A stretch of DNA of 44,397 nt, taken from positions 1-44,397 of the forward strand of contig BDIP01000023.1 in assembly GCA_003568945.1 (NCBI GenBank), given 5' to 3'. The translations under genes were made by a program, and so were the position numbers. Under the pieces are notes generated by a model that saw only the letters and a program-made list of their open reading frames with translations, was not told the DNA's origin and searched no databases. This DNA is from Kipferlia bialata (lineage: Eukaryota). Positions within the stretch are counted from its first letter, which is position 1. Every line of letters starts with the position of its first letter. Of this stretch, positions 4,929 through 44,234 are shown one piece after another.

Positions 4929-5573
4929 CTCCTTCCATGTCCTCCCTGCCACCAGTGAGGCCGCACTCCTCCAGCCCTCCCTGGTGTTGCCTGGAGTGAG
5001 AAGAAGTTAGAGTAACATGCAATTGTCTCTTATCAAAGGATACGTTGTAATACTAGAGATGTGTGTAGAGGGTACCACTCACCGAAGTATGCCACTCCCT
5101 CCAGTATCACACTGTCCTCCTCTGGGGAGAATGGCACACACTGCATATCCCTAGTGCCCCCACCGCACACTCCAATCTTGGTCAGGAGGGCAGGACTAGG
5201 GAGTGTCATATCGATGAGAGAGCCGTTGTGAGAGGACATGTGAGGTGAGGACACCTCTCCCATTGGCACAGCACTACTCTCTAACACAGGGGTGTTGGGT
5301 GGGAGCGATAGGTCCCATGTCGCTCTTACAGTAGGTGTACCCTCCAGTGCACAAGTATCAGCTGAGGCACCAGAGTATCTGTCCCTGTCGATGGTCTCTC
5401 CATAGACGTGGCAGGATGCTGACTGAATGGCATCCCACTCATACTCCATGGCAGACAGCACCTTGTGTGAGAAGTCTCTATACCAGTTGGGATACCTCAC
5501 CATAATACTACTATACCTGCCCCGTGACGCACTCTCCCAGGCCCAGGGTGTAGTCCTCAGGGCTTGAGCACAT
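4929..5573 (-). CDS. Hypothetical spliced protein; 3' end unresolved (continues below 4929)
   Basis: ATG 5573 MCSSPEDYTLGLGECVTGQ, phase-0 intron 5516-5462, then in frame with the 5033-5503 ORF (VLSAMEYEW...GVAYFG|gtgagt) and a further exon GNTREGWRSAASLVAGRTWKE|gtacat. No domain recognised. Confidence 0.5.
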
Positions 5574-6006
5574 CTCTGGGAGATGATCTCTCTCTCTTCG
5601 CAAACTGTGTGTGTCTTAGGACTCGCAGATATGACGTTCTAACAATTCAGAACCAAACTTGTACCGGGTTTGTGTGAGAGATAGCCACTCTCTTATAGCA
5701 ACAAGGGTGTGAGGCTATCTATTTGTGGACCAGCTCTCCTGTAGTGTCAACAGTGTATGTACACTACAGTGAGATCAATCACTGAAGCGGCACTAAGTGG
5801 AGACACCAGAAGTGATGGCTGTTGAGTGATAACCTTGATGTCTACAGTGATACTATCTCAGTATACTGTTATCGGCAGGGCATACACGATTCTTTACAAC
5901 CAATCCATTCTGACTCTATACCTCAACCTTTGTGCCTGAGTCTCAGACTATTTCAAGTGGCTCATATCCAACGTGTGAACTCCACACCCTTAAACCCCCA
6001 TAGACA

Positions 6007-8485: not shown

Positions 8486-8750
8486 TTGTTAGTGTGTCAC
8501 CCCATTATTGCGAGATATTCCCAGCCACCAATAGATAATGGTGCACTATCGACAGCCGGTACTTAACAGTTGTTGAATCACTCGTTTAGCATTACTCAGT
8601 TCCATCATGGAACTTCCATGCGAAATTACTTCGGTATTCGTCCTCTATTGACGTGATACTATATTGTATGTGTTTCTAGAGAACTGTAGTGGTGCAAGAG
8701 TACTAAGAAGTACAGTGGCTTCCTTATATTCTCTCCGGTGAGGAGGACCG

Positions 8751-11700
8751 CTAGGCCTTCCTGGTGCAGAAGTAGAGGCATCTCGCTGCGTTATTCCACC
8801 GATGGGCTAGGAAGACCCATCCTTCACTGGTGGTACCAAGAAGGACCACTCTCCCGTATTGCGCCGCAGTGTCAGTTGGCTGATGTGAGGGTATGCAGAG
8901 ACACTTAGCTCTACCCGAAATCCCATAAATCATTCGCTATTCCTATATCCGTACCCTGTCTGACTCTGTGAGGTAGCCACTGACTGTATCGTAGCTACTG
9001 ACACACATCTCTACGCAAGGTAGTGGAGAGTTGTCCATCCAGCAGCGTAGCCCGTCTGGTGCAAGGAGATACTCCCTACCAATGACCAAGGGTATCCCTT
9101 GCCAACTACCATGTACACTTACGACGTAGTTTGTGTCCTGCGGTGAACTCCCCCTTACAGACACGCCGCTGCAGTGAGGTAGAGTGTCATGACTCCAGTA
9201 CGCACAAGGGGACAGGGACGCATGGCGTTTGGTCCTCGGTGAGTAGTGCACAATATGGGCTGTGTCGTGAACCAGAGCACAGTGCAGAGACGTGCGACAG
9301 TTACCATCAGTATCAGGCCAGCGCATCCATTGCTGTGTGGTAAGGCCTATTCCATGTAGATTGACGATATGTTGTATGGGTGTACTTGGTAGCTTACCTC
9401 CTCTTCTATGTCGAAGGCCAAGCACAGGTGCTTGTGCAACAGAACCAAGTAGTTGGGAACATATATCAGGCTAGGCAAAGAAAGTCCTGTCGACTTGAGC
9501 TCGTCATGCCGGAGTCTAAGGCTCCATTCTGGCATTCGGACTCTGCTCCATGTGTGAGTTGCGAGGTCAAACGTCACGATGGTATCCGAGTCGGGGATAC
9601 ATAGATAGACTCTACTCTCGTCAGTCACTACTTTAGTGCGCATCGCATTGATTTTTCGCTGGCTAACAGTACAATCTGAGAAGGGGCCTCCTGCAACTGC
9701 TGTCCAAGTGACGGATGGGCGCATCTCATCACTCTGAGTTCCACTCTCTACCTTGGAGAACCACCACTGGTCTTCTATCAGGAGCAGAGCGCACGCAGGG
9801 GGTATTGCATAGGACAACAGGACATCTCCAGTCGGAATAGTGTGTTGCACTTCTAGCAGGGTGTATGAGAGCTCGGCAACCGCTGGGGCTTCGACCAGTG
9901 AGACTCGCTCAATGTATGGTTTGACAGCGCGGTCCCTATTGGTAGTATGTGCAGATGAAACCGCAGCACTTGTCACCACAGTGCGTATAGCAGCAGGTGT
10001 TGTTGGGTGAAAGCGAACACTAGACACTACTCCAACCTGGTGCAGGAGGGTGAGAATGTGTCTCACGTTGTGACAAGTGAGTGACGCTTGGTTGAGGTCT
10101 AAAGTGTGTGTGTGGATTGTGGGTCTCTTCGGTAGCATCACACTTAGGACCAAGGCGTGGCTCTCGGTGACACTCTGTAGCCGAGAGGCAATAGTGCAGA
10201 GAGCAGCTATCACTGGTAAGTCATCCCTCGGCATACCAGGGTTGAACAACGGAGTCCCGTCCGCGATCTGGCTCTCCGTGGCAGAGTTTAACAATGCATC
10301 CTTCAGTATCTGCAATGGGTGAGTACCGTCCATAAGAAGGGGTAGCAGTTTGGGAATGCTGGCGTCACCACATACTCTCTGCAGTGATAAGGCTATACAG
10401 TGGCACATGTAGTGCAGAGCAGGTGACATCGAGAGGCAGTGCTCAATGGCAGTTCTCAGACATGACGCTAGCGCTATGTCTTGACATACATATGCTGCGA
10501 GGTACAGTTGCACAGGTGTGTCTCTACCATCTCTTGGAACACATCCAGTGTCAAGGTATGTTGACATACCAGAATATATCTGGTCTACTCTTCTCTGGAG
10601 CACTATCTCAATGTATGCTTGATAGGTTGGAAGACCAGTGTACATGTCTCTGAGAATACAGCTGTATTGGGCTGACACATGTAGACTGCTGACCACTGAG
10701 TCTATGGCAGAGACAACCAGACCACCGATCAGGTGATGGGTGTCAGGACACTCCACTGCAAGATGCAGGAACTTCTCGATCAGAATAGGGGTCTTAGACT
10801 CCATCTCATGTGGTGGCGTTGAACGTGTTGTAGCAGTTCCCCCACAACTGAGGTGTTGAAACACCGCAAGGATAAGGCTGGGCCAGTTGTAGGAAACCTG
10901 GTAATGTGACAGGATATCTCTCAGTGTGTCGTTCAAAGACGGAATACCGAGTTTAGCCACAGCCCGTGCCACTAGACACATCCATATAGGAGGGGTGCAA
11001 TCAATCGTCTGCCAACGTCGTGCAATGTGGGTCAGAACACTCTGCGGATCCATAGTGCAGTTCTGTGACGTGTCTGAGAGGGCCTGAGGACTCTGAACAG
11101 ATAGTAGGGACGTGCTGGGACATATACTTACTTCAAGGTCGTTATATACCAAGACCCTTCGAGCTCTGTAATGGCGAGTGTCATACCCGGCTAGAAGGAG
11201 CAGGCATGTATCCACCCCTGTGCGACAGCCAAAGGCATTTGTGTCAAAGGGAGGGCAATGACTCCCACGTGGTAGTATTCGTGATACTTCGCTGGCCCAA
11301 TGCAATTTCACAATACTAGGGTCGTCATCTGTGAAGGGATCCTGGGTGAGATACACCCAGTCCCCCAAACATGTGGCTGTTGTACATCTCCCAAGTGGTA
11401 GCGGGTTGTGTATTCTCCAGCCTGCACAGGGTGACAGTGAGAGATGGAAACCATTTAGCCCAAAGATGTGAAGGTCGTCTGCTATCCATTGAACAGGACA
11501 GCCGGTGTCCATAGGCAGAGCGTGTCCTCTATCGTCTGTTGGAACGTCCATAAGGGTCTGCCACACCTGCAAATCGGTCTCATATCTCCAGGTGTCACTC
11601 AGGTAATCTCCACGCCTTTGCGGCAAATGCGAGAATTGAGGATAGCCCCCAGCAACAATGACAGAGGGGCCATCTGAGGCAGTGACGCAATTGGCTCTCC

Positions 11701-12477
11701 CAAGAGGGTACATACCAGGATCCATTGCCTCTGGAGGTACTTCCATCACCCACTGCATAGCGTCAGTGTCCAGTCGGAGGAGACCCATAGGTGAGCCGTC
11801 CACCTCAGGATGTCGTTGGACGGGATAGTACACGCTGTTGCCGACCTGAGCGCCCTGGGGGTCAGACGTGACACTTAGGGGATACGCAGTTGTTGTCTTT
11901 ATCCGTTGGAAAGGGTGTCACTTTACCTTGAGGTTGATGGAGTATAGTTGCATCTCTGGTGGCATGTGCCCAACAGCCCTCCACTCCCAGGTCACGCAGG
12001 GGTCATGTTGTCTGTCGGTGAGGGGATAATGATCACTATAGCGGCATATACTGTATACTGTACAGTGCCCACTAGAAGGCCTCAGAATTCAAAGAAGACT
12101 TCAGTGCCGTTGTGGAATGATTGGTGTGTCCCACAGTTTGTAGTTCATAGTGTATGAAACCACACAAGTACAGTCATATGTTTGTGTCTTGTTATAGCAG
12201 GTGACAACACCTACCTCCGTCTCCCCATGTACACCTGACGGCTGGGTACTGGCTGAGAGCGTCTGACAAAGAGGACGCGTCCATCAGCGAGGCCCGTGAG
12301 TCCAGCGTCTAGCATGTGGACAGTGGTGTCTCTAGGTAGATATGGCAGCCACACTACCAGCTCTCCATCCTGGTCTCTCTCAGGCCCATGCCTCACTCCC
12401 TGTACAGTCCGGTGGGCATCAGTTGGTTGGGGGACACTAAGGATTGGTATCAATTCAACCTCAGGGGGGTTATCCAT
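8751..12477 (-). CDS. Large multi-exon protein: kelch-like propeller, helical region, second kelch-like propeller (paralog A)
   Basis: Start ORF 12477 MDNPPEV...RR|gtaggt; exon ~12012-11926 (QHDPCVTWEWRAVGH...LK|gtaaag); long exon ~11855-9396 (kelch: VIVAGG...YLSDTWRYETDLQVW; RVYLC...VTFDLATHTW); exon ~9333-8954; last exon PTDTAAQ...CTRKA* ending 8751. Junctions are phase-compatible. Confidence 0.75.
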
Positions 12478-13289
12478 GTTGGTGTGGTATGTCTCTGTTA
12501 CTGGTATTCCAATTGATGTCAGTTCGACACTAGGGTATGGTGGAGAGGGTACCGGATGATTCAGGTGTGCTATTGATACTCATTGGGAGTTTTGATGGTT
12601 TCAAAGGTCCGGACATCATAGGTCAACAGTGATGAATATCATTCTTGTACTATGGCGATACTATTAGAGCCGGAAACAGATATTTGTGATATCTATTCAT
12701 ACACTCTCCCACCCTATGGTTCTATGCGCTGGTATGGCGCCTCTCTCGCCTTGACCCCCATGGTCAGACCGACCCAGAAGACCAGCACCCCCCCTGCTAT
12801 CACACCCACCACCTCCAGCACTGTCCACAGTGTGGACTCCACACCACACCCTCCCACTAAGAAGGGGGGGCAGGGTGGGAGTCTAGGTACATAGAGCCTA
12901 GCGTGTAGGGCAGGTCTCCCACAATGTCTTCCACATAATGAACATCCAGTTGAATGGCTGTGGGGAACGGGCCAGCAGATGTGCTTGATGGAGTTCATCT
13001 GCGGCTGAGAGTATTCATATATATAATAATGGGTACAATTGTCATATATGTTCAGTGACTTTCCATGGAGTATGGGCCGATAGTGGTGTAAATATATGGG
13101 TGTACTATGATGCATGCAATACATGTATTTCAAATTCAATTTATCGCGCAGTGGTCAAGGAAGGAAGAAGACATAGAAAAGGGGTCACTCATTCTGAAAC
13201 CCGTTTCCGATATCATCACACTCATTTCACTCACTCCACGTCCTACATCAACTCCTGCCTCGCAAATCTCAACAGCCGTCTCCCAAGTT

Positions 13290-16200
13290 CTAGAACTCCA
13301 GTAGAGCCTCAGGGAAGTCAACCTCCACAAAGTACATCCCTGAGAGGACCACCACGACCCCAGCCCCACCCAGGGGCAGTACATGGGAGGGAGTGTTGGT
13401 GTAGTCGTAGGGGTACTTGACTGTGGCAAGTGGGAGCCACTCGCCAGTTACTCTGTCACACAAGCACACACGAACACCCAGTACTTCTCTGTCTAGAGCA
13501 TCGTCATACTCAGCATGGACCTTGAAGAGCCCCACAACATGGCGACCCACTCTGACACTGGTGAGGTATTCTTTCAGAGAGGCGCCAGGCACACCAACCC
13601 GAAGACCCTCGTCAATCTTGGTGAACGACAATGCAAAATCGCCCCATTGCGACTTTCCATGACAGGGGAGAGCTATGGCCGTTTCATGGCCTAAAGCGGG
13701 CTCATGACGACACTGGTCAGAGCAAGGTAACCCGGCACTAAGGCATGCCCACTCTCCAGCACACGACCTGTCTGTATCGTCGTAGGCCCACACCTGGGTC
13801 GCCTTGCCTACTCTCCCCACGACACAGACGCACCCTTGCAGCACGCCGAGGGAAAAGACGGAGCTGATATCGGGCCCGCCCTCGGTCTGGGTCCACTCTC
13901 TAGTTGCAAGGTCCAGCACTACCAACTGCAGTGGCACATCACCGTACTGTGTAATGCAAAAGTACACACTTCCTCCCACCAAAACTGGTCTTGTGGAGGT
14001 GATTAGTAGAGTGCTGAAGGTACACTGGGGTATGGGGGACTGATCTAGGGACAGTGACTCCCAAGAGTGTGTGAGGTTGTGAGTGTGCGGATCCTCAGCT
14101 CTGTGAAGAAACCCAATGGTGCCCTCATTGCTGTACATCCCATTTCTCCTTCCTACGCATAGGATCTGGTGTGAGCGGGAGATCAATGACTATCAAAAAC
14201 TAACGTAGAGTCCCCACACAATATATGAGAGTATACCATTTACATACCGTGTTCTCTGAGACTGGAAGCATGAACCTCACACCTTCCAGCGTTGCGTGGT
14301 CACGTAGCACTCTTCCCCGGCTCTCTAGAGTTAGTTATCTTTGAAACGTCATTATGACCTCAGGTCAATTGAAAGCAAATACACTAGTCTCAATGTGACA
14401 ATTCAGTGACCACACTGTAACATGTTGATTCTGTAAATGGGTACCTTGTGCTGCACGGTCAATCATGACCTCAGGCAATAGCACACCCTCCACACCTGAC
14501 CTGTGGTACAGCACAGTCACGTCACCAAACCTACTCTCCCTCACCACCTCACCAATCAGAGGAAGGACTCTGCTCTTGGGCTCATGGGTTGTACCAGTCA
14601 CAGTGCAGGAGGGTGTTGTGTGTTTGGCCAACAATGCACTGACTATAACGTTGCGGCAGACATCTGGAGTGGAGTGGTTGAACACTACTGAAGGACCAGT
14701 GTCAGGCAAGACGAGATCCATGGAGTGGAGGAAGTCGAGTAGACGCCGCATGTTCTCACCCTGATCTACACCGACCAGGGTCACAGCGGAGAGGTCGAGT
14801 GCAGCATGCTCGGCAATATCCAATGAAGAGTGACTCCTGTACATGTAGTGCCAGAGGGGTGTGTAGAGTGGCAGTGCGACACAAGCTGTGGCCATGACAG
14901 AGGCCATTTCCAGTGGGCTCAGGTACTGTGGGGTGAAAGATGGAACAGCCCCCTGTCCTATCATGTTGGCCACAAGTGTGGTGAAAGTGGCCATAGATGC
15001 ATAGTCTGGGAGTGCCAGAGTGCCCTCCAAAGAGCTGGACACCCCCACCTCGATTTCCCTCTCCCACCGAGCCACAGCTGCCGCCACATACACCAGCCAT
15101 GCCTGAGTCGCTCCATCCTTCTGAGACGTGACGCGGCAGGTAGGGTAGGCAGCAGTCAGAGCACCCAGAAGGTAGGCCAGGACAATGCCTCTCTTGGTAT
15201 ACCCCGCCCCAGCCTCCTGTTGCCCCTGTGTTGACACCACACTCGTCACAGTACACAGTAGCTCCATGAGCCTGGTAGCCAGTGAGGACACAGCACCCTC
15301 TGACTCAGACTTTGTGTTCTCAGACACCAGCTCTGCCACCTCTACACCCAGAGAGCAGAGCACTCCATCCTCACCCTGCAAGGTACACCCCTCCAGTACT
15401 CCAGCGGTACTCTTGAGCCTACGTGCCAATCTGTATGCCAACAGACCAGGGTGGACATGGAGCTGGGCCGAGGTCTGTTGCAGGTACTCTCCACCCAGAC
15501 ACTCGATGAGAGAGTCTGGAAGTGAGAGCAGGATCCGCCCTTCATCAGTCTCCATGGAAACAGTGTCGACGTCTGTGAGCTGTCCAACACCATTCATGAA
15601 GTCAGACTGGACTGAGAGGCTCCCACGCTCAATCCATGTATCACTAGGTACATGATATGGGTAGACTGCGTTGGGTTCCCTGTGACCGCCGCTGACAACA
15701 GCGAGAATGAAGGGTCCTACTGCCACTAGGATAGGATGGCGGGCTGGGAACGGGGGCCTGGCAAGAGACACCCACCTGCCATCAGCAGAGAGCCGGAGGT
15801 GCCTCTTTGGACTCTCGGTCCAATCTGCCATGAGGCCAACGACATGGAGATCTGAGCCATGGGAGACAGCACTAGAGCCTACGAGGGGGAATGGGAGGGA
15901 GGGAAGACGACCCCATCCTGTGGGCCCCTTAGTCCAAGCGTCAGTATGGCAGATGGGCTCATAGCCTACTGACTCGTCGCTAGACTGCCCACCGACCAAC
16001 ACTAGCTGATTGTGGAGACACGATGTGATGCATGCATGCCGTCTCTGAGGCCCACTCGATGGAGTAGTAGATATGACCTCTGTGGCCTTGCACACCAGAG
16101 TGCCGGGTACCAGTTCCACCACAGAGACCTGGGTACCTTGGGGGCGAGAATCGTACTCATTCCCATCTCCCAATCCCTCTACCAGGAGTAACTGGTCACC

Positions 16201-17734
16201 CACCCAGGTGACACCACCGACGAGTGCCAAGGGGATGGTAGCTGGGACCGGCACCATCCTTTCAACGGCATGAGACTCAAGTGTACGAAGGACTCCCTCT
16301 AGCTGAGCTGTCTCCCTATCATCATAGTCGCTGCCCCTCCACGACTCACCAGGCACACTGAGTGCCATCCGGGGTGCAAGGGATACCATATGGGAGGGAG
16401 CCTCATGATAATCACGGGTAACACTCACAGTCAGTGGTGTCGATGAGAGGCCAGGGGTGATACGCTCACACAGGCCTACCCGCTTACATGCTCCTCTGAT
16501 GAATGGAAGAAGGGGAGTGATAGCTAGCTGCCAGGGAGAGGCCTCGCCAGGGGTATCTAGAGAGACGACCACGTCAAGAGAGAGGATATGCAGAGCAGCC
16601 AGGAGCCTGGGTCCAAGCCAGGAGTCGGCAGGAGCACAGAGAGGAGCCTCTGACAGATACTGACATACCAGGTCTAGATCAAGCACTCCCTCGGCTCCAT
16701 CACACACCCCACCCTCAATTAGGACCGTCATGGGCACACGCAGGAGCTCTGTGAGGGATGCGAACTCCACACCAACGGCCATGATTACAGCAAGCACACT
16801 CCTGGGAGGGAGGTCAATGAGAGATGAATGCCCTGTGTCGACCGGAGTAACACCGTCCCTCACTCTCTGCAGTAGTGTGCACAGAGCCTCGAGGCCCTCA
16901 TGGCTCCGGCATAGCGCTCTGGCAGCCCACTGAGGCTCAAGTCCAAGGGAGACTGCCTGATGCAGTGTGGGGCTGCACGCATCAGGAGGTGTCTCCACCA
17001 CACAGCAGGTGCTTCTGGCGGCATCGCCTGTCTGCAGAAGGATGGGAGCTCCCTTCTTCCGCAGAAGGAGGACAGAGGCTGGATCTACTGCGCACACTGA
17101 GTGACAGTCCACATTGAAGGTGACCTTGCCCTTCTTGCCCTTCACGCCACACTCTCCACTCAGTTGGCAGAACTTCCAGCGCCCACCATCCCCTCTCCCA
17201 TCCGCATTAGGAGTAAACACGTGCACCTGGTTGAGGTGTCTCTTTCCCCCAATGACCAGCATCATAGGGGAGGGGGAATGTACACGCACTACACAGAGAG
17301 ACTCTGCCCGGAACACAGGCGCCGGCAGCTCAGTCCAGGCATCAGATGTCAACCCCCTAGTCGCCAGTGCGGCCACGTGTAGAGTCAGGTGTCTGAGAGC
17401 CCCATCGCTGTTCCCCAATAGCACATGGAGGTACTCACCCAGCACACTTGTAGCCCAGCGTCCCACATGGAATCTCCCAGGGGGGGTCTGTCTCGCAGTT
17501 CGGACTCTCCGACCACCAGAGGACGGGACAGGGGATGGGGTGGGGCACAGAAACTGGATGTGCCTGAGAAGGGATGCCATACCCCATCCCTTCGACCCAC
17601 CCCCCAGTCTGATACTTCTCTCTCTCTCCCCCTCTCCCACACCAAATGCTTTCTCAGGCGCATCGCCTTCAGATGGGGTATCGCCTAGTACACGTCTCCT
17701 GCCGGATACAGGGGCATGGACAACCCAGAAGTAC
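13290..17734 (-). CDS. Large multi-exon kelch-like propeller protein (paralog B); 5' exon(s) lie in or beyond the N gap
   Basis: The 14365 and 13290 ORFs join via introns 14444-14325 and 14247-14166 and a 77-nt exon (AQ|ESRGRVLRDHATLEGVRFMLPVSENT|ILCVG). Kelch-like motifs: MLVIGG...VHVF, RRHACITSCLHNQLVLVGG...TDAW, SVYFC...VLDLATREW. A possible first exon MRQNGKE|gtaagt lies at 18674-18654. Confidence 0.75.
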
Positions 17735-17863
17735 CTGGGTAAGGGAAATGGAACTGATAGATGGGTTGGGGTTCTTGAGTGACCACAGTGCTTGTCGGGA
17801 TATTGCCGGATTGGGGGGGTGGGGGGGGGGGGGGGAGACTCTATATCTGGTGTACATATTATT

Positions 17864-18457
17864 NNNNNNNNNNNNNNNNNNNNNNNNNNNNNNNNNNNNN
17901 NNNNNNNNNNNNNNNNNNNNNNNNNNNNNNNNNNNNNNNNNNNNNNNNNNNNNNNNNNNNNNNNNNNNNNNNNNNNNNNNNNNNNNNNNNNNNNNNNNNN
18001 NNNNNNNNNNNNNNNNNNNNNNNNNNNNNNNNNNNNNNNNNNNNNNNNNNNNNNNNNNNNNNNNNNNNNNNNNNNNNNNNNNNNNNNNNNNNNNNNNNNN
18101 NNNNNNNNNNNNNNNNNNNNNNNNNNNNNNNNNNNNNNNNNNNNNNNNNNNNNNNNNNNNNNNNNNNNNNNNNNNNNNNNNNNNNNNNNNNNNNNNNNNN
18201 NNNNNNNNNNNNNNNNNNNNNNNNNNNNNNNNNNNNNNNNNNNNNNNNNNNNNNNNNNNNNNNNNNNNNNNNNNNNNNNNNNNNNNNNNNNNNNNNNNNN
18301 NNNNNNNNNNNNNNNNNNNNNNNNNNNNNNNNNNNNNNNNNNNNNNNNNNNNNNNNNNNNNNNNNNNNNNNNNNNNNNNNNNNNNNNNNNNNNNNNNNNN
18401 NNNNNNNNNNNNNNNNNNNNNNNNNNNNNNNNNNNNNNNNNNNNNNNNNNNNNNNNN
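17864..18457. other. Assembly gap (594 N) flanked by poly-G tracts
   Basis: Directly visible run of n. Confidence 0.99.
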
Positions 18458-18473
18458 GGGGTAGAGTGGGGGT

Positions 18474-18513
<40 letters not shown>

Positions 18514-18940
18514 ACGAGCGCGCGAGTGGTTAGATGGCCAAGAAGACTCTTCATAAAGTGGACACATATACATAGCCATCTGACTGTATCTCCCATGTCC
18601 ACACCTGTATCGATAACACATAGTAATGTACTTATACACCAATACATACTTACCTCTTTGCCATTCTGCCTCATCCAGTGCAGTGACAGGGCTGTCCTAA
18701 CGTCCCCCCCTGGGTGGGAGTCTGGTATTTTGAAATGCCCTCTCTAGAAAGGGACTCTCAAAGAGAGTAGACTCTCTAGAAGAGACTCAAGTTCAAGATT
18801 GTCTATTGAAGTGAACCCTTTCTTTGCCAAAAACAACAGCCCAAGGCAAAGCTACTGCTAGGTGAGCCCATGAGCCAGGCCTAGTGGGAAACAATATCAG
18901 TCATTCACACTCTCATTGCCATCATCATTATATTGAATAT

Positions 18941-21900
18941 CTATGCATCCATGACGCTGGGCACTTTGGAGTCCGCCTTGGTCTCACTTGGAAGCAGAGT
19001 CCACGAGGCGGCAATACCAACAACCTGGTATGGGTCACACTCACCAAGAGAGATGTCAAGACGCGACATACATTACATAAGACGTACCTCAATTGCCACA
19101 AACACCCAGAGCACCGTGTCGTATCCCTTGGTACCCGGTATGGCATCGACGATGGCACCCACAAGAACCTGAGAGGTTAGCCTCTTTCTATGCCTACTTG
19201 GTAGACTAAATAGTGATTGTGTGATAGCTGTGCAGTATGTGAATATAGCTTCACCTGCAAGACACCGGCACTGACGAACATGGACCCATTGAGGATACCA
19301 AAGAGAGTGCCCTGGATGGTCTAGGGTGAGAGAGAGGGATGGGTTGTCTATATATGCATGGTCGTATGTGAATAAGAGGAGAGAAGTGACTGCATGTACA
19401 CTGATGTACCTTTGGATACCGCCGTCTCAGTAGGGACATGGTACCTGGAGGTGAGAGATGGAGGGTGGCTACGAATAGACGATTTCGAATCAGTGCTGGT
19501 AAGGGCGGGGCACATATCATGTCACATAATCAATGCTTATAACAGAGGACTAGAGAGTGATGTACCCACCTATGACGAGTGACATTGCCTGCATGGCAAA
19601 CAGCAGTATGTACAGAGACCACATTGGCAGGACAGTGCCGAACAGGACGAGGATCAGCATGAGACACACACCCTGGGGATCAGTAACACGAATACACACT
19701 GAGTCTGCATGATTGAGAGAGTATGTTGCATGCTCCGTACCACTATATTGTATGCCCTGATGTTGGCCACCTCTCCCATCCTGTTCACAAGGTAGGACTG
19801 CACAAAGCCACCCACGACCTGGCCTAGTGTCAGAGAGAGAGAGAAGGTGACTCACTCACATATATATGAATAATTATTAGCTAATACACGACAATACCAA
19901 TAGCCGCAGCCACCAGGACGATATATCAGATATGGGTAACAACAAAGAGACAACCAATAGAATAGTATATACTATATACACACACGACACTACCTATAGC
20001 CGCCGCCCCCAGGATGGATGATGCCTCCTTGGTCGAGTACCCCCCTGCCTCAGTGAAGTAGGTCACAGCCATGAAGCCTCCAAAGGCACCCACACAGCCA
20101 GTCTGGAGATGAGACAGGAGGAAGACAGGTCGTACAGTCACACTACACTGTAACACCCAAGCCAATAATGATACAAATACATATATGTATAACTATAACC
20201 CCCACCTGCAGTGCCTGTGCCATGATAAGTCTCCACAGAGAGGAGGGCTTGAGGTACACTGGCTCTGTGGAGTCAGTAGCCTCAGCTTTAGTCTCATCCT
20301 CTGGTATCTGCACCACAACATCACCCACACCCTCACACTCACACTCACACTCCTGTCCAGACAGAGGAGGAACCTCCGGAACGGGTCCGTCAAGAGAACC
20401 TATATCTGTCTCATGCTCAGTCAACATAGAGACTAATTGAGCGCCAGGAGAGACGACATTATCAACCAATTGGGAGTCATTGCCAGCGCCTGCCACATTG
20501 TGCAACAGTTGTCCTCCAACTGAAACAGCATCAGCAGGTGAGGGTATGTCCTCAACCTCAGGGCCCTTATCCTCTGTGGCAGTACCATCCTCTTTATAAC
20601 TAGCATTGGTAGCTAAGACGGTATCAGCAGGGGCAGTGTCAGTATTTGTACCCAGGACTGTGTCTTCTGACCCGTTAGCCTCTGGGGTCTGATCCCTGAG
20701 GCCCACTTTAGAGGGGGAACTGTACACAGTACTGGTATGAGAATACACTGACATAACCCGAAACATTCGGAAGGCATTAAAGGATGGAGGAGACATTACA
20801 TATTTCCTAAGATACGTACAGTGCCACTACCACCCCTGATGCTGCCAGGATGATGGTATTCCACTCAAAGACAGACCGCCAGCCTGGGGGTTAGGATGGA
20901 GACACAACTACAAAAGCATCCTCTTGTATATATGGATATATGGATATATATATACTCCACGTACCCATCCAGCTGAGCATGGACTCCATATCACCTCTAT
21001 ACTAACATCATAATTATATACACATATACATATGAGAGTGTGTATATGTATACTATTCCCATACCCATCCAGCTGAGCATGGACTCTACGTAACCTCTAT
21101 ACTAATATCATAGTACACATATACATAGTGTGTGCGTATATATATACTATTCCCGTACCCATCCATCTGAGCATGGACTCTACGTAACCTTTACATAATC
21201 CTCTCTCTCTCTCTCTCTCTCTATATATACTCTCATCGTACCCATCCAGCTGAGCATGGACTCCAGGGGTGACGATGCAAGGTACACACCCAGACCACCC
21301 ACAGAGAGAGACACGCCTGGGAAGGTGAGTGTGGGGAATGAATACACCTAGGATTATTTGTACGCCTCTTGACTGGTTTAGGCAATTAATAGGAAATGCA
21401 AATTTTTTTTTGGGGGGGGGGATATACAGGTATTCATATATGTACCTAGCAGGTATGGATATGCCTCCTGACTGAACCAGTTGGCAGCCAGCTTGTTACG
21501 GGTCAGGGCCACGGAGGAGGCACCACAGGCCAGAAGGACCCTAGGTATCAGCAGACATCTAACCAATAGCACTGCAACCTATGAGATCACATTGCTAGTG
21601 TACATACCTCCCTGCAAGAGCAGTGGCTAGTACATTAGCCTTGCTCAGAATCAGACTGCCGACTTGAGGTCAGGAACTAATTGAAGTCATATTAAGTCAC
21701 ACTAACATAACTGGTGGCCACCAGCTGAAGGCTTGGTGACAAAGAGAGAGTCAAGGTAAGATATAAGGGAGTGTGTGTATGTTTTCTTACCTGCTGACAC
21801 TGCAGACCCAAGGGCCAGGAGAATACGCAGAGACATCTGAATGTGAGAGATAAGACAACAAGAAATACTGATGAAGCATATAATGATATATGGTACTCAT

Positions 21901-34984: not shown

Positions 34985-37900
34985 ATGTCTAATGTCGCCA
35001 TTTCAGGTGGTGGTATCCGATCGGCATGCTTCCTGGCAGGTGAGTCTCACCGTGAGACCTATCGTGTAGGTACAGTGTCTCTAGACTGAGATGATCCCTT
35101 TACTCTCAGGTGTACTGTCTAGTATGTCTGAGGCCAGAGACCTGCTAAATGAGGGACATGAGGATGAACCCGTTGGCACACGCCCTGGAGATGCACTGCA
35201 GGTGCAGCACCTGTCCTCTGTGTCAGGAGGGGGATTCCTGGCTGGTGCCCTATATGATGCAGCGGCAGACACACAGCAGACTGAATCAGTGTCTCCACTG
35301 CTACCATCCCCTGTGGGTAGTAGGGTATTGAGTCAGGCCCTGCCTAGTACAAGGGTTCCTTCTGATGGCGAGCCTCTCTCTGCACAACTTAGACAGACTG
35401 ATAGGGTGGCGTCAACAGAGGATGAAACTCACAGTGACAGTGATGTGAGTGAAGATTCGAGTCCCTCTGAATCAGAGTCAGACACAAACCCAGCTCCAGT
35501 GGACCCTGCCTCTCTCGAGTCTCTCTCCTTCACAGATGGTTCTGGGCCTCATGAGACTGTGGAACCGGAGTATGAGACTGTCATCTCAAGAATGCTGGCC
35601 AACCCAAACTACGTGAGTGCATATTACCAACAACTGGCTACCTCTGCACTGCACTCTCTCTAATCACAGATCCTGGGCACAAAGACCCGGTTCGTCTGGG
35701 CGTCTGTATGGGTCATCTTCCTAGGTATTTGATTTTCGTTGACACTGGCGCCAGAGTGAGTTCTCTTGTGTATCTTCACACCATACTGTTCATTGTAACA
35801 CTCTGCAGGTGTAGTCTAGAAACCCCCCTCTGATCCATTAGCGGCGCTCTTTCTGCTCCTTGGATCCGCCCTTGTCTTCACATTGAGTGGAGTACTAATT
35901 GTAGTTCTGTTCGACTGGTTTGGCCTCAAGTGAGTTGAAGTGTCTCATGTATACTTCGCAGAGCTAGAACCTCACTCACAGGCCCTTTACCTTCCAACAG
36001 TCCATCATAGGGTTTGGAGTCTTTGCGATTGTGTGTGGAGCAAGTGTCGTTGCGCTCGCCTTTATGGTCAAGTACCTGTCGACAATAAGGTAGAAGAGTA
36101 CCGTCTTATGTATCAGTCTCCAAGGTATCAGAGTGTGTGACATTCAGGTTTTGGAGTCCCTCTTGGCGCCTCACCAATCTGTACAAAGCAATGGTACAAG
36201 TGCTGATTGCTGTCTCAATGGTGAGTCTCACGGATTTCACTTGACACACTGAGTCTGAACAACAATATTGCGCGTTAGCTGACCTCCCAGATATCCTATA
36301 TAGATAGTGGGATGGCTAATTAACCAAGTATGTCTCTGACCTCAGGTCAGTCTCTTGCTCAGCTCCTACTACCTGCGTTCCTTTATTGACCGGCTAACTG
36401 AACGTAGGGTCTCTGTGGCCCAGGTGAATATGTCCACTTATATCATAATGCACCACTGTGTTGTCACGTATCAAATCACCATCCAATGAGCGTTTAGAGT
36501 CACTTAAGCACTGACAGCAGACCCTTGTCTGGGTTGGCCTGGGTGTTCTTATTGCTGTAGGGATCATCCTTCTTAGGGCGTTCTCCTTTGCAGGTTGGCT
36601 CCACTGTATAGTAGCTAATTAGCACATAGTAGTACTAGGCTATTGGGCCAAGCTTTTCTCTCCTCTAACACTAGATTGGTCCATCATCATCATCGTGACT
36701 GCCGTTGGTCTGGTTACCGTTCTGCGGATGATTCGATTCAGTCAAGAGGAGGATGAAGTTGACCCGTTCTCAAGTCTGGCAGGTACAGTCAATTGAAACA
36801 CTATCTTTATATGCGCAGTACATCTCTGCCAATGCCTTACGATAGCGCTTAGTTGGGCGTTTATGGGCATACTCCTCGCCTATCCCTTTCTGGCTATGAT
36901 TAGAGACAAGGGGGCACATAGGCTGTACAGGTACCAACCCGTAACCGTAGTGTCTCTGCGTGTACTAGCAACGTACTGCTATGGTTGTCTTACCTATCAG
37001 GGGATCCATACTACACAGCTTCTTCCACGAGGAAGAGACTCCACTCCATGAGTTGTTCTCCAATGGATCAAGACCGATGAGGGATGTCAGCCCAAGGTGG
37101 GTGCAACTGACATTGCTTAGGGGTCTCCGATGTTTCTGGCCTAGTCTAACCCAGATACTCCCTTGTGTGCCACATGGCCTATATAGCAGAGGACAGCCTA
37201 AGAGGCATGGTGGTGCTCACAAACACAGGCAAGGCAGACATATACCATACTTATCCCACGGCTGCAATGTATCAAATCTGTATCAGGTGCATTACTCACC
37301 ACCAGGTGGCACCATGTATCAGTTCAGACCAGACGAGAGGGACCCCCCAGGGGACACAGTACCAGAGGTACAAGTGTGTGTGACTGGTGTATAAGGATAC
37401 CCGTACTGACCCCCTAGGTCACTGTCCCATGGCTCAAGGACATGCGACTAATCACTGCAGTGGCGCTGAGCGGGGCTGCCATTGCACATCACATGGGGAG
37501 GCTTCAGGTGTCAATCGCCGTCACGTGCATTTGTTTACCAACGAGTGCTTGTTGCGTGGCTGAATACATTGCTCAGGAGCAACCGTCTAACCTCACAGGG
37601 TGGCATGAGTGGCATTGGCAGCCTGGTGTCCTTCCTCTCCATCAACCTGGGGTCTTGGGTGTTTCCGCTACAGTAAGTTAAACTTAATAAATTTCCACAA
37701 ATAGTAGCATAGACACAACTGCTGTTTTCCAGCGCCCTGCTTACTTATAAGGTCCATTGTCGCCCGATACTGGAAAGATGTCCTGAGTTCGGCTGTAATT
37801 GTGGGTCTCTTTCTTATGGAGTACTTCATATTTCGGTATGTGATCGGACACAACCCATAAGTAGTGTATTCTATCAGAGATATCTACTCTCTCAAGTAAA

Positions 37901-40900
37901 TGTAGACACTCACTCACAGGTACACTACTGGCTTTGGGTTTGATGAAGCATTCTGTCTTGCAGTCCTAGCAACTGCTGGTACAACTGTTGGAGGTCAGTA
38001 GCTATAATCATGACTCAAGCTGGCATTGATATATATATACCTTTGATGTATGGACCATGCAGTATGGTTATACATAGAAGTCTACCCTAAAACTATTCTT
38101 ACGCTGCAGTTTCTATCATTCTTATGGTCCTGCCCGCCACTCGCCGGTGGAAATACATTCTAGGTCGATTGCTGACAGTTCGTTTTGACCTCGACCCAGG
38201 TGTGCCACGGACCAGGTACCGATACATAGAGCTGTATATCATATATATGATCTTTCTACGCGATTACTAATCCAGACCTGACATGGAGACTACCATCTCT
38301 AACCTGCCTGCTGTGTTTCTATCCGACGGGTGGCACAGTGACAACACGGGTAGCTGGGCACAGCTGGTGAAGGATAGGTACCAATGATACATACTATGGA
38401 TATTGCTCCCATTATAGTCAGATAACTCCAATATATACCCCATCATAGAGGTTCTCACTCAGGTATCCTACCTTCGTGGCTGACTCTGACCCCCACCAGA
38501 CAGGATTGACCATGTCTCTCAGTACGTGAACAACTAAGTAATTGTCAGTCAAATGATAGTATGGTTCATACACCTCACTGGTTGACAATCACCTACTGAT
38601 GCGAACTCAGTGTTAGTATCCCAATGATTGAGTCATACTTGTTGCCACTCCTAACTCTCAGTGTTGATCAAGGCTGCTGAGAGGCTCGACATGGAGACTG
38701 CCGCAGCTCTACCATCCTCTCTCGCGTTCTGCCAAGGTGAGTGCCGATCACACGTCTATTGTGGTATACTATGCGTCCATGCTCTCTCTTAACAAGCAGA
38801 AGACGACAGTTACCCTGCACCTCAGCAGGCTGATAGGGCTGCAACTCCATCGGTTAGAGAGAAGCAGGATTATCAAGTTCGAACAGATGAGTCAGTGGAA
38901 CAGGACACTAGCATTATTACTGCATCTCAGGAGCTACAGGCTGATGTGACTCTGTTGAAGGTACTAATGAGAGTCACCCCGTGTTTCAAGCCAACTAGTA
39001 TGATTGTGTCATCTAGAAGAATGTGTACTACAGCACTAGGTCTAATGATGGAGACTGTCGTGTACACAGTAACTCTTCGATTCTAGTCTCACCCTCAGGG
39101 GTGTGTGCAGGTGTTGGGCGCTGATGAAGACCTGGATGTTGGTCAGGTAGGGTGCAATACATACATATCCGGAGATCGCGACCTGTTGGTAATTCTTTGT
39201 TATCTGCCAACATTGTATTGGAGTTGCGTCTAACACACAGTTGCCTAGTACCCTACGAAACCGTCTAGCTGCATCAACACGGGTCTTGAATGCTGCACGA
39301 TGGAGTAACAGGACCATCGTGTCCACGATAACAGAGACATTTGTCACACCTGCTGGAAGAAGGTAAGTATGATTCCTATTGGGTGGATCACTGTATATGT
39401 CTGCTCTACTATAGTCACATTCTGACCAAGGCTTGATCTGGAGTGGCTGGACAAGGCGTGGCTAGGAGTGGTCATTATGGCTGATACCAGTAGAGGTACA
39501 CATTTGGGTACATTCATGATTATAGCTCTCTAAGGGGGCCTTTCATGCCAGGCATGATACTTAGGTCCCAACCACGTGCGGCTAGCACAATGGGTATTTC
39601 TCGGGCCAGACCGGGTGCCTCAGTAACCCAGTATAGGTGCACCAACAATATTACATAGTGTTTGTACATATTACCCTTACAAAAGGGATGACTTCCGCCA
39701 GCAGGCCATAGCACCAGGGTCCCGGGTGTCATACCAGTCTCGAACCAGACTCAGTTCCCAAGAAGGTACCTATTTGCGTAGTGTTCTTTTTGACAATGCA
39801 GAAGTAGACTAACAAGCAGTTCAGGATGAGGAAGAGATTATAAACCTGGCAGCTCAGGACCTGATAGATAGCCTGGCCGGTAAGAACGTCCGGCCAGCTA
39901 GTGTGCCTGTAGTAGGAATGAAGTCACTGGTTGGTGAGACTAGTCATATGGAGTCGAGAACGTTTTCCAGCCCATACATGTCTGCACGTCTGGGTACGTC
40001 TCCTGCTGTACCGAGAGAGATACTGCAAGACTTGCCAGCTCCAAGGCCTCTCAATGGAAAGGGCATTGACCTGACCCAAGTAGGTGCTACCCTACTATCG
40101 CCGGTAAGTATGGGGTGTTTCACACATATGAATGAAGCTTACCCGTCTCTCTTTGACCTTGCAGACAGGTGGTCTGATGTGGTTCTGGCTTGTGCCGCGG
40201 GCAGGGTCATTGAGCATACAGGCCGCAACAGGTATGTAACATAACCACACACATCCACTATCAGACCCCGTAAATGCCACTGTATAGCGTAATGATTCCC
40301 AGGTGTGACCTGTTGTGACCCTGGAAACGCTGTTCTTCAGAGACAACTTGGGAGTACTATTGAGTGTCGGTGAGGAACCCAAGACTCACGGTGTAGTAAT
40401 AGCTATCATAATCTCCCTCTTCTTACCCCCAGTATTCCTGATATGGCCGTTGGCAACCAGTTCATGACACCTGAGACAGCTAGGTACACTCGTAGTATTG
40501 AGTACTAAGCATACCAGTGACACTAGTACGGTATGTCTGGTATCTGCGTTCTGCAAATGACACAGGCTATTCCATCGCACTGGCGTCTATGCGTATGTGT
40601 CAGTGATAGAGGTGTCGTTGGCTACTATGGGTGAGTGCAGTTCTGCAACCGACGAAGAGTATGTGTCGCACTTAAACACTCACTCAGGATACCGCAACGC
40701 AGCCCCCACGTCTTACTGGCTATGGCTGGCAGACATATATGGAGAGGCTGTGAGTGACGCATCACGACAGGTAACCCATTACACTCGATCTTTCACCCTT
40801 TGTGTCTCTAACCTTAGCTCCCACTACTACACGATAGACCCCTGACTCGGTGTATCGACACTGTGACAGCACTGGCCAGGATAGTGCATAGAGTGCGTCT

Positions 40901-41737
40901 TGAGTGCAGAGGCGGACTAGCAGACAAGGGTATGGGGAGGGACCACCACATATCCACTCTACCCTGGATTACGGGGGTCGAAGATGCCGTGCGGTGAGTA
41001 CTTGTGTTCCAAAACCAATGCGGTGAACACTGCTGGGAAACTGACCTCCAGTCTATGCCGTAGAGACGCCCGTCTAGCTGGATGTGGAGTCCCATTAGTA
41101 CCAGTGGGACGGGAGAACGTCCCAGGTATTGACTACACATCACCATATCTTGTGTCATCTATCGCCAAAGACTATTGAATTTGGTTGAGATCTCATTGCG
41201 CACTGTTCTCTGACAACAGACCCCCTGGAGTCCGAGACCAGAGACACACTCAGAGTGACCGACGCATGTGTCTTACCAAGCACTGAGGCTCCCAATAGCG
41301 TACCTATCCAATCTGACACAGTGACTGGTGATCCATATTACACCTGCAATGGAGGAAGCAGCGCAGAAGACTCTATTCTTGTTCTTGGCGATGCTTCAAA
41401 CCATGGACAGAGTCAGGATATTGAGGTAATCGATGGGTCTCTAGCAGATCTTCCCGTACACACCAGCGAAGGTACGGGGGATAGCAGGGAGGACGGAGGT
41501 ACCACCGAAGATACGGTTGATCCTCCTCTCCCAGCAACCTCCTACAAGTGGAAGAGAGCAGGGGAGAGAAGGGCGGCTGAGAAGGCCAAGATTGCTAGAA
41601 GAGCAGCCAGGGAGGAGGAGAGGGGGCGGCAGGAGAGGGAGAGAGCCGCTGCCAAAGATATAGCTGGTCAGTGTGTGTTACTGGCTGAGGTATCGATGGA
41701 GGCACTGCGTCGGTACATGGAAGAGAGGAACTCTTAA
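34985..41737 (+). CDS. Membrane-embedded cPLA2/patatin-like (Ser-Asp dyad) acyl hydrolase, many exons
   Basis: First exon (not in the ORF track) MSNVAISGGGIRSACFLA|GVL gives the oxyanion loop plus Arg. Nucleophile elbow HLSSVSGGGF (Ser codon 35223-35225). Multiple TM exons ~35670-36900 and ~37600-38150. Further motifs: LITAVALSGAAIAHHMG, LVSFLSINLGSW, VFLSDGWHSDNTG (Asp codon 38325-38327), IPDMAVGNQFMTPETAR|LFHRTG. Disordered tail ends 41737. Confidence 0.8.
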
Positions 41738-42342
41738 AGTAGCCTCTCTAAGTTATCCGGTGGAACCACAGTATAGATAGCCGGTTAGACTGGCTGTTAT
41801 TATGTATATATATACTAAAGCTTGATGTTTTACTTGATAATAGATAAGAGTTGTGTCGCTTGTGGCCCACAATGTGGGTTCCCCGAGGGAACTTCCCCCA
41901 TATTCAGTAATGTACATTAGTACTACATACTGATTCAGCTTGGAAACACAACACCCCGATACACAGGTAGTATAGCAGACGGGAGTGGCCATGCAAACCA
42001 ATAGAGTGACTATATCGATTGCGAGTCGCGACTCTCAATGAGACCCACTGTGTACATGCAGCGTTGAGAGATGGGTGTGAGGGAGATGACGGTGGGTCGG
42101 ACTTCTAGGCCTGTGGAGTGGTTCTGGTACCATGTGGTAGGACAGTGGTATCAGTGGCTGAGCATTCTCTGCGGAGGTAATTGTCCTTGATACAAGCAGA
42201 GAGAGGTGACTACTTCAACACGGACATCACCCTCAAGTGCAAAAATGCTGGTCTATTGATCGTGTAACAGTATCTCTACTGTAAGATCGAAACACACCCT
42301 CCCCGCACGGCTTCTCTACACATACACACCGAGGTCACCGTT

Positions 42343-42749
42343 ATGACTAGGTCTACCACGCCTGTGTACCCACCTGACGTACTGAGTGTATTGGAGACAC
42401 TGGGGAAGATGGCCAAGTATGTATAGAGACTTGGTATACCATTGCCACTCATTATTCATAGTTGGGCCTCTAACTCTAGGTGCCCCTGTGGGGAGGTGTA
42501 TGTGGTTGGGGACTGTGGGCTTCCCTGGGAGGTGGCCAGGTGTCCCACCTGTGGCTCAGCAATTGGTGGCACGGGAGACCAGTACGTTCAGGACCAGTGC
42601 TATGATCGTGTATAATACACGACGTGTATTCACTGTAGACTCGTGACTATATGTTGTATTCAGCCTTTTCACATATCTATATGACGTCTTATCCTAGCTT
42701 TGTACCTGGGAATGCTACAGTGACAGCCGCAGAGCTCCTCAACCAGTAA
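42343..42749 (+). CDS. Stand-alone RZ-type zinc finger microprotein (RNF213/ZNFX1-like), 75 aa, 3 exons (42343-42416, 42480-42581, 42698-42749)
   Basis: Two phase-2 GT-AG introns (gtatgt...ctaactctag; gtacgt...atcctag) give MTRSTTPVYPPDVLSVLETLGKMAKCPCGEVYVVGDCGLPWEVARCPTCGSAIGGTGDHFVPGNATVTAAELLNQ*, matching the RZ pattern CxxGHxYxIGxCGxxxxxxxCPxCGxxIGGxxHxLxxGN. Confidence 0.8.
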
Positions 42750-43508
42750 CTCAGGCTGAGTCTCAGCTCCTGCGGCACAACCCGCCTATTGCACAATACG
42801 GTATTGTGACAGTACCATAGCCTCCTTGGATAGAGTATTATTACCTATCACCATGTTCGGACTCTGTATGTCTACTTACTGGCAATAGATGACTCATAGA
42901 GAGCGTTAGGCTTTGTCCTTTTTCATCGTGTGACACACCAGTATACCACCAGTATATGTGGAATGATACTATGTTAATAGACAATCAATACAGTGCCCCA
43001 CGTCCTATTACTCTGTCTTGATACTCACAGGAACCGTAACCAATGGATAAGTTACCAAATTAGTGAACAAATAGTCTGACACCAGACATGAGATACGTAT
43101 AAAGACGGGTCGAGAAGGCTCATAGATGGACCGCGACGAGTTGGCACAGTACTTTGTTTGACATTTGCCAATGATTTGCATGTTTACAACATTTGAATCA
43201 CTGGTAACATATAGATGTGGTGTTGTACATCGAGAATAGCTGAGACTACTGAGATTTATAGCTAAGCCGAGTGATAGACCTACACCAGTGTCCATTCTAA
43301 GGGGTTAGTGACCGTTCGTTTCTTGACCCACTGTGTTTTCTGTGTAGAATTGGTTCTAGGACCTCCCAGCCCTGTCTCTTCTATTCGTATACTTCTCAAT
43401 GACTCTGCCCCTCCTGTGTGTGTGTGCTGTGCTCTTGGGGCTTTGCCTCGCCCAGGTATCGATCTTTACGTAAATATATGCATTTTCCTTATATGTGCTG
43501 TTGGTGCG

Positions 43509-43541
43509 TGAACCAATGAACCAATGAACCAATGAACCAAT
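43509..43541. repeat. (TGAACCAA)x4 short tandem repeat
   Basis: Four perfect 8-mers, giving four CCAAT motifs, followed by a degenerate copy. Confidence 0.9.
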
Positions 43542-43839
43542 CATGAATCAATGATTGGCGATGCTTCCCCCCCCCCCCCCCCTCAGACCCACTCACAGTC
43601 AGTCAGCTGACCATTCCGCATATAGATGCGACGTGTGTGATCTCTGGATGGAGCAGGTATGGTGTCTTTGGCTTATAGATATAGATATGACTAGATACTG
43701 CTTATCTCTCTCTTCGATGTGTGTTGCCCCATAAGCCGCTCTAATATCCATGTCTGATGCTGGTAATAAGTGTGTAGTGTCCTAGCAAGAGTGTATAATG
43801 AGTTCATACTGAGTTATGTTAGGATCTGCCCCCCTCTCT

Positions 43840-43875
<36 letters not shown>

Positions 43876-43890
43876 CTCCCTACCCCCCAG

Positions 43891-44234
43891 CGGTCCGGTG
43901 CCCTCGGGGGTCTGTACAACGCCGTGTTCCTCATCTCGATGGCCTTCTTCATGGCCATCGAGGCATTCCAGAGGTATCACTATCACTCTCAGTATCAGTA
44001 TCTATCAGATATGGCCATCGAGGCATTCCAGAGGTCAGGACGCTTGCTGGGGATACTCTCTAGATCCATTCGCTGTGTTAGTATCTGTCTTCTAATGTAG
44101 CATTCACTGACTATGTCAGGCTAGATGTACCCATAGTCCTCCCCTAATTTTCAGGTTCTTTGCCCCCGAGGAGATTGAGCAGCCCAACCTCGTGCTGATT
44201 GTGTCCACCATAGGACTCCTCTTCAACTTCATAG
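43891..44234 (+). CDS. Cation diffusion facilitator (ZnT/SLC30, Zrc1/Cot1-like), two internal exons (43891-43973, 44155-44234); partial
   Basis: RSGALGGLYNAVFLISMAFFMAIEAFQR|FFAPEEIEQPNLVLIVSTIGLLFNFIG matches the CDF TM3-TM4 pattern RAEILGALxNAVFL...EAIxRFxxPxxIxxPxLVLxVxxxGLxxNxxG. The gene continues past the window end. Confidence 0.85.

What the first reader, a model, noticed from the sequence alone, without database searches (positions are those of the whole stretch)
42343..42749. Hidden 75-aa stand-alone RZ-finger protein with altered ligands
Seen: three tiny exons, absent from the ORF track, splice into a protein that is almost entirely an RZ finger. The second splice exactly restores the IGG-x7-GN spacing, which supports the model. 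Established: RZ fingers are the RING-independent transthiolating modules of the giant immune ATPases/helicases RNF213 and ZNFX1, and RNF213 uses its RZ finger to ubiquitylate bacterial LPS. The catalytic G-[DE]-C cysteine is kept (GDCG), but CxNGH has become CPCGE (a Cys probably replaces the His ligand) and the distal His is shifted by one (IGGTGDH). Inference: a free-standing ubiquitin-accepting module acting in trans with a separate E2-recruiting partner, or a decoy/regulator, in a presumably bacterivorous protist.
Basis: partly seen in the sequence, partly recalled or inferred. Interest (0 to 1): 0.85.

Follow-up and report, generated by a model that had tools for sequence, protein, structure and literature searches.

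The report
Lone RZ finger in a protist
A bacteria-eating protist has a small three-exon gene model, already in the databases, that encodes only the ubiquitin-handling zinc finger of the giant immune enzymes RNF213/ZNFX1; it likely binds and accepts ubiquitin but would pass it on slowly, because its catalytic histidine is out of place.

Summary
The three exons are real and give exactly the public protein KIPB_000245 (75 aa, labelled RZ-type), so the gene is annotated, not hidden. It scores 57 bits on Pfam ZnF_RZ-type (cut-off 27). The CPCGE ligand change is not special. Cys(+2) replaces His(+4) in 18 of 123 scored homologues and in the same species' two other RZ proteins, including a 3,451-aa AAA+RZ giant that keeps its own catalytic Cys and His. 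The one motif change peculiar to this protein is Asp58 in the general-base His column. The extra His59 sits in a variable column and is not shifted by an indel. No RNF213/ZNFX1 remnant flanks the gene and the upstream gene ends 605 nt earlier, so it is unlikely to be a tail. It keeps the helix reported to bind ubiquitin and to be needed for activity of an isolated ZNFX1 RZ fragment. Most likely (0.4) it is a selected minimal RZ module that binds and accepts ubiquitin and discharges it slowly. A young relic (0.3) or a trans module (0.15) remain possible. Expression and activity are untested.

The parts
42343..42416 (+). Exon 1 (residues 1-25): start codon, P-x-x-P-x-D entry motif, predicted helix 12-20
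   Evidence: adding it raises the profile score from 71.2 to 76.7 bits
42388..42390 (+). [quoted passage not shown]
   Evidence: I/V/L/M in 96 of 96 ZNFX1-type homologues with the same spacing; mapped through the helix-ending Gly; role from preprint passages
42417..42479 (+). Intron 1, 63 nt, GT..AG, CTAAC branch box at 42470-42474
42480..42581 (+). Exon 2: RZ core with Cys26, Cys28, Cys46, Cys49 (predicted zinc site), Cys37 (catalytic position) and Asp58
42514..42516 (+). Cys37, equivalent to mouse RNF213 C4462 / human ZNFX1 C1860 (first Cys +11)
   Evidence: spacing; Cys in 123 of 123 scored homologues
42577..42579 (+). Asp58, in the column of the general-base His
   Evidence: His in 94% of 264 fixed-register homologues
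42582..42697 (+). Intron 2, 116 nt, GT..AG, splits the His59 codon; alternative acceptor at 42638
42698..42749 (+). Exon 3: restores the x7-GN motif, short terminal helix, stop
41220..41737 (+). Last exon of the unrelated upstream gene, open to its own stop 605 nt before the RZ start codon
   Evidence: RNA joints into it; joined frame open to the stop; no Pfam hit

Best explanation
The locus is a separate three-exon gene model encoding one RZ module and nothing else, which likely folds round a four-cysteine zinc site, likely binds ubiquitin through its N-terminal helix, would accept ubiquitin from a UBC4/5-type E2 on Cys37, and would release it slowly because Asp58 occupies the general-base position. 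It would thus act as a low-turnover ubiquitin acceptor, a buffer or damper beside the species' full-size AAA+RZ ligase, rather than as the missing half of that ligase. Shown: exons, reading frame, motif residues, family membership by profile, absence of detectable flanking remnants. Inferred: selection, zinc binding, ubiquitin binding, thioester formation, slow discharge, cellular role.
For: Pfam RZ 56.9 bits against 52.7 for the giant's own finger. 11 of the 12 columns conserved in at least 90% of homologues are kept. Identity to KIPB_004190 is 10 of 12 at those columns against 11 of 30 elsewhere (p 0.015). The closest relatives found are only 46-50% identical and none closer was found among 34-2000-aa proteins, so it is not a fresh copy of a known gene. 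In a neutral-decay simulation the gene stays intact in 12% of runs at 0.05 and 1% at 0.1 changes per site. Coding GC is 58% against 40% in both introns. Its ends match the RZ domain limits of mouse RNF213 (4433-4499, about residues 8-74 here). AF2 gives helix plus beta strands at pLDDT 85; the Atlas's nearest models are RZ domains (TM 0.63). A GST-fused ZNFX1 RZ fragment auto-ubiquitylates with UBCH5B and needs the helix residue I1835 (preprint passages). H4483A lowers RNF213 activity without abolishing it.
Against: No orthologue was found, so there is no dN/dS test. With the looser column cut-off (60%) the constraint contrast is not significant (16 of 27 against 5 of 15, p 0.20); the 90% cut-off was chosen afterwards. 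Loss of the base is also what early decay looks like. A second acceptor with an equal branch box would remove His59 and the GN motif. RNF213 needs its C-terminal domain to dock E2. The active ZNFX1 fragment was a GST fusion whose limits I did not see. The buffering role is inference only.
Confidence: 0.4

Rival explanations
1. A young relic: a domain-sized piece of an RNF213- or ZNFX1-type gene that recently lost constraint, Asp58 being the first lesion.
For: General-base column lost (His in 94% of 264). Seen in one contig only, cluster of 1. Long branch (1.3) in the tree. The assembly is fragmented (11,564 scaffolds), so a near-identical parent could be unannotated.
Against: Start, stop, four splice sites, a perfect branch box and all five cysteines are intact. 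A relic would have to be under about 0.05-0.1 changes per site old, yet no parent above 50% identity and no flanking remnant was found. RZ fingers with no His at all occur in long proteins too (6 of 123, among them the 1,890-aa helicase P0034).
Confidence: 0.3
2. A catalytic subunit working in trans for an E2-binding partner that lacks its own finger, for example an RZ-less ZNFX1-type helicase, with His59 serving as the base.
For: It ends 26 residues after the last Cys, like the terminal fingers of ZNFX1-type helicases, and these tie with KIPB_004190 as best pairwise matches (63-65 bits). [quoted passage not shown]
Against: No such partner is known here. Both other RZ proteins found for the species have their own finger with Cys and His in register. 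His alone at the +1 slot is seen in 1 of 123 homologues, there through an insertion. No helicase or AAA gene was detected in the window.
Confidence: 0.15
3. The model is the tail, or a part, of a longer mis-modelled gene.
For: A weak acceptor lies inside exon 1 (42350) and an exon-like piece lies at 41939-41966. The 5' end is not mapped. Short RZ database entries are often labelled fragments.
Against: The upstream gene is spliced into a last exon that runs to its own stop. No acceptor that could feed exon 1 in frame reaches the branch score of the weakest of 12 RNA-joined introns. 274 RZ-bearing proteins and two flank profiles find nothing in the gaps at E below 0.08, though small exons could escape this.
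Confidence: 0.1

Closest known systems
RZ finger of RNF213 (mouse C4451/H4455/C4471/C4474 metal site; C4462/H4483 dyad; PMC12075652, PMC11549300)
   Same: Same spacing of first, catalytic and last two cysteines (0, +11, +20, +23); helix followed by beta strands; almost the same domain limits.
   Different: Cys at +2 instead of His at +4; Asp in the base column; no AAA ring, E3 shell or E2-docking C-terminal domain.
RZ domain of ZNFX1 (C1860/H1881; ubiquitin-binding helix with I1835; bioRxiv 10.1101/2025.10.14.682297 and 10.1101/2025.09.05.674436)
   Same: Terminal finger with a preceding amphipathic helix; Val16 in the I1835 slot; resembles the engineered RZ fragment reported to be active.
   Different: A natural gene model; no helicase and no Miz/Z-RING E2-binding domain; shorter helix-finger linker without the usual Trp-Tyr.
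KIPB_004190 (3,451 aa, AAA + internal RZ) and KIPB_008245 (237 aa) of the same species
   Same: Same CxCGE ligand variant, same loss of Trp-Tyr before the first Cys, 46% identity over 63 aa to KIPB_004190; grouped together in the tree (99/68, not firmly supported).
   Different: Both keep the His in register and continue into the downstream E3 region; the 75-aa protein stops.

Membership tests
RZ-type zinc finger (PF20173) | Profile score above the curated cut-off | tested here: met
   56.9 bits against 27
RZ-type zinc finger (PF20173) | Canonical metal ligands C-x3-H ... C-x2-C | tested here: not met
   Glu30 at the His position; Cys28 present instead, a recurrent exchange (18 Cys-only, 103 His-only, 1 both, 1 neither of 123)
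RZ-type zinc finger (PF20173) | Catalytic Cys 11 residues after the first ligand | tested here: met
   Cys37
RZ-type zinc finger (PF20173) | General-base His 21 residues after the catalytic Cys | tested here: not met
   Asp58; His59 is at +22 with no indel before GN
RZ-type zinc finger (PF20173) | N-terminal helix with hydrophobic ubiquitin-contact residue | tested here: met
   Predicted helix 12-20; Val16 in the I1835 slot; sequence and model only
RZ-type zinc finger (PF20173) | RZ fold by structure comparison | tested here: inconclusive
   PDB searches give only weak zinc-ribbon matches (best Z 3.8, rmsd 2.7, 50 aligned; no Foldseek E under 0.001); Atlas models of RZ domains match at TM 0.63
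RZ-type zinc finger (PF20173) | Zinc binding and transthiolation | not testable with these tools
   Needs biochemistry
RNF213 / ZNFX1 E3 ligases | AAA ring or SF1 helicase plus E2-docking domain in the same chain | tested here: not met
   75 aa, one Pfam family only; no such homology detected in the window

The most novel reading that the evidence does not exclude
A natural free-standing, four-cysteine RZ enzyme: the smallest transthiolating E3, which takes ubiquitin from E2 on Cys37 and, with His59 or Asp58 as a re-wired base, passes it to substrates on its own or lends catalysis in trans to a partner in a bacterivorous metamonad. Some other short C4-type entries (P0028 cluster, P0094, P0142) could be further members of such a class.
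Probability: 0.2. Interest if true: 0.8.

Novelty: new variant of a known kind. Interest (0 to 1): 0.42.

Why it matters
RZ fingers are known only as mobile, poorly resolved parts of 200-600 kDa immune ligases. A natural 75-residue version with the helix and catalytic Cys would be an easy object for structure and for testing whether Cys can replace the His ligand and what the general base contributes. The by-product, a recurrent all-cysteine RZ subtype and an RNF213-like giant in a metamonad, suggests that this ubiquitin chemistry reaches far outside animals. If the gene is a relic, only that by-product remains.

Tried and rejected
Expression: no RNA holder was listed for 41200-43400. The one offered run (X1, contigs, RNA by guess) joins 13 introns in upstream genes at depth 3-6 but has no cover at 41906-43837; this is no evidence either way. 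No whole genome is held, so other RZ genes and RZ-less partners could not be searched by tblastn. Longer-protein word search with P0002: 0 of 88 candidates. Viral contigs: no relative of P0028 (12 stretches) or of alignment A1 (4 stretches). Metagenome contigs: no relative of P0002 among 598 stretches; alignments A1 and A2 were too loose to scan. The genomic context of other short RZ entries (46 of the fetched proteins are 110 aa or less) was therefore not established; many may be exon calls or fragments. Fold searches listed no RZ domain, which says little because the domain is poorly resolved in the RNF213 maps. The RING/IAP hit (E 0.064) and S27e/rubredoxin hits were rejected as generic zinc-knuckle likeness. 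P0006 (bacterial T9SS repeat protein) was dropped as a chance hit and P0003 (tandem half-fingers) as repetitive. The first count script had an offset error and was redone. No complex prediction was sent: no ubiquitin or E2 of this organism was at hand. Earlier scan findings: none. Literature searches (listings only, and 72 and 85 returned off-topic papers) showed no paper on stand-alone or all-Cys RZ fingers. Supplementary alignments of the RZ papers were not seen and may show the Cys variant.

Full report
Observation. Joining 42343-42416, 42480-42581 and 42698-42749 gives a 75-residue frame identical to stored protein P0002, which the collection names KIPB_000245 / GIQ79582.1 of Kipferlia bialata, 'RZ-type domain-containing protein', a cluster of one. 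The species' genome paper (PMC5874029, passages only) says models came from AUGUSTUS with transcript hints, over 97% had transcript support, the assembly has 11,564 scaffolds, and the cells feed on bacteria. It does not say whether this model is among the supported ones. Pfam PF20173 scores 56.9 bits against a cut-off of 27. A motif pattern matched once in the window and never in 100 shuffles.

Splice sites. Run X1 joined 13 introns upstream, 12 of them GT..AG. All 12 carry a TNAY branch box 4-7 nt before the end. Intron 1 has the full CTAAC box, far better than the rival acceptor at 42461. Intron 2 has two acceptors with similar boxes (42638, 42697). Homology decides for 42697: it is the best of 24 AG sites against a profile of 267 non-Kipferlia RZ cores (76.7 bits, next 71.0), and it aligns with the GN region of KIPB_004190. 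His59 exists only with this acceptor or the box-less 42663.

Stand-alone? The upstream gene is spliced into an exon that is open to its own stop at 41737, 605 nt before the ATG. The next apparent start is at 43399. tblastn with 274 RZ-bearing proteins, full helicases and AAA giants among them, gave 109 hits away from the RZ exons. The best has E 0.001, at 5.3 kb, and six weak ones (E 0.087-0.46) lie in the gaps. Profiles of the regions before and after internal RZ fingers found nothing there (the positive controls were in the training set, and small exons could escape). KIPB_004190 and KIPB_008245 hit exon 2 only. No acceptor that could feed exon 1 in frame has a branch box as good as the weakest verified one. 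The 5' end is not mapped.

Ligands. In mouse RNF213, C4451, H4455, C4471 and C4474 bind the metal, C4462 is the nucleophile and H4483 the proposed base; H4483A lowers activity (PMC12075652, passages; PMC11549300, passages; bioRxiv 2025.09.05.674436, passages). Here the matching residues are C26, E30, C46, C49, C37 and D58. The search of 1.84 billion representatives gave 475 hits at E 0.001, of which 150 were listed. Of the 149 non-self rows, 24 lacked the fixed spacing and 2 lacked the first Cys. Among the remaining 123, 18 have Cys at +2 without His at +4, 103 have His only, 1 both and 1 neither (Fisher p 2e-19, inflated by kinship). The Cys form occurs in AAA giants (P0111, P0114, P0125) and in a helicase (P0109), and in several parts of a weakly resolved tree (64 of 145 rows). 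So Cys28 likely supplies the fourth ligand, and the variant is common.

Same species. P0004, third on the list after the protein itself and a repetitive protein, is KIPB_004190: 3,451 aa, AAA domains plus an internal RZ, 46% identical over 63 residues. Its best PDB matches are RNF213 chains, weakly and at the RZ (E 0.003). KIPB_008245 (237 aa, 6.2-kb contig) is a third. Both have CxCGE, both lack the Trp-Tyr before the first Cys as this protein does, and both keep the His in register. Parentage is not settled: ZNFX1-type helicase tails (P0005 cluster, 48-50%) tie with KIPB_004190 pairwise, while the tree groups the three Kipferlia fingers with five internal C4 fingers at 99/68.

The His. The base column is His in 94% of 264 fixed-register homologues (redundant set). 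Here it is Asp, and His59 lies in a variable column (His in 3%) with no indel before GN. His only at that slot was seen in 1 of 123, through an insertion; 6 of 123 have no His nearby. I could not measure distances in the model, so whether His59 reaches Cys37 is open.

Constraint. 11 of 12 columns conserved at 90% or more are kept. Identity to KIPB_004190 is 10 of 12 there and 11 of 30 elsewhere (p 0.015, cut-off chosen after the fact); at a 60% cut-off p is 0.20. Simulated neutral change leaves start, splice sites, frame and 11 key residues intact in 44%, 12% and 1% of 4,000 runs at 0.02, 0.05 and 0.1 changes per site. A relic must therefore be young, yet no close parent or flanking debris was found. 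Coding GC is 58%, introns 40%.

Mechanism. AF2 on a 60-row alignment gives pLDDT 85 with a helix at 12-20 and strands after it. The Atlas places it with RZ clusters by features (0.95) and structure (TM 0.63), including clusters of 65-91 aa, one labelled fragment. A preprint (10.1101/2025.10.14.682297, passages) reports that a GST-fused ZNFX1 RZ fragment auto-ubiquitylates with UBCH5B, that the N-terminal helix is predicted to bind the ubiquitin I44 patch, and that I1835A kills activity. Exon 1 encodes that helix, and Val16 falls in the I1835 slot, which is I/V/L/M in 96 of 96 like-spaced homologues. The protein thus has what is needed to bind and accept ubiquitin, but lacks the in-register base, an E2-docking domain and a substrate-finding domain. 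I infer a slow acceptor that would buffer or damp the full-size ligase (0.4). Rivals: young relic (0.3), trans subunit (0.15), part of a longer gene (0.1).

Verdict. It works like an RZ finger and passes the profile, but fails two canonical features (His ligand, His base), so it is filed as a variant, and it is not a member of the RNF213/ZNFX1 ligase families as a whole protein. No paper on a stand-alone or all-Cys RZ finger appeared in the listings; supplements were not seen. Expression, zinc binding and activity are untested, and whether free RZ genes recur elsewhere is open. Interest 0.42.

Noticed in passing
window 35040-41219: All 12 RNA-joined GT..AG introns (50-140 nt) have the branch box 4-7 nt from the 3' end, fused to the acceptor.
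   Followed up: partly
window 37229-37305: The one RNA joint without GT..AG ends fits a GC..AG intron when the cut is moved by three bases.
   Followed up: partly
P0004 (KIPB_004190) and P0150 (KIPB_008245), not in the window: An RNF213-like AAA+RZ giant, and a second RZ protein on a short contig, in a metamonad; both have the all-Cys finger.
   Followed up: partly
P0028 cluster, P0094, P0142: Short (57-107 aa) all-Cys RZ entries seen on 4-5 contigs each, up to 36, 89 and 19 kb; could be free genes or exon calls.
   Followed up: partly
P0034, P0140, P0052, P0146, P0029, P0059: RZ fingers with no His near the base position, one in a 1,890-aa ZNFX1-type helicase.
   Followed up: no
P0003: 272-aa EukProt protein made of tandem RZ half-repeats ending in one complete finger.
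   Followed up: no
window 41939-41966: Exon-like piece in the 5' gap with a good branch box and a GT donor; may be UTR of either gene.
   Followed up: no
window 2041-14189: Cluster of Kelch-repeat ORFs on both strands, with a sub-threshold IBR hit (E 1.5e-4) at 7589-8482.
   Followed up: no
window 14365-18696 (-): 1,443-codon open frame with no Pfam hit, next to a 27.5% GC block at 18001-19000.
   Followed up: no
window 43399-44200 (+): Downstream gene starts with a signal-like peptide; later exons look like a cation-diffusion-facilitator transporter (recalled likeness; no Pfam hit on a 27-aa exon).
   Followed up: partly
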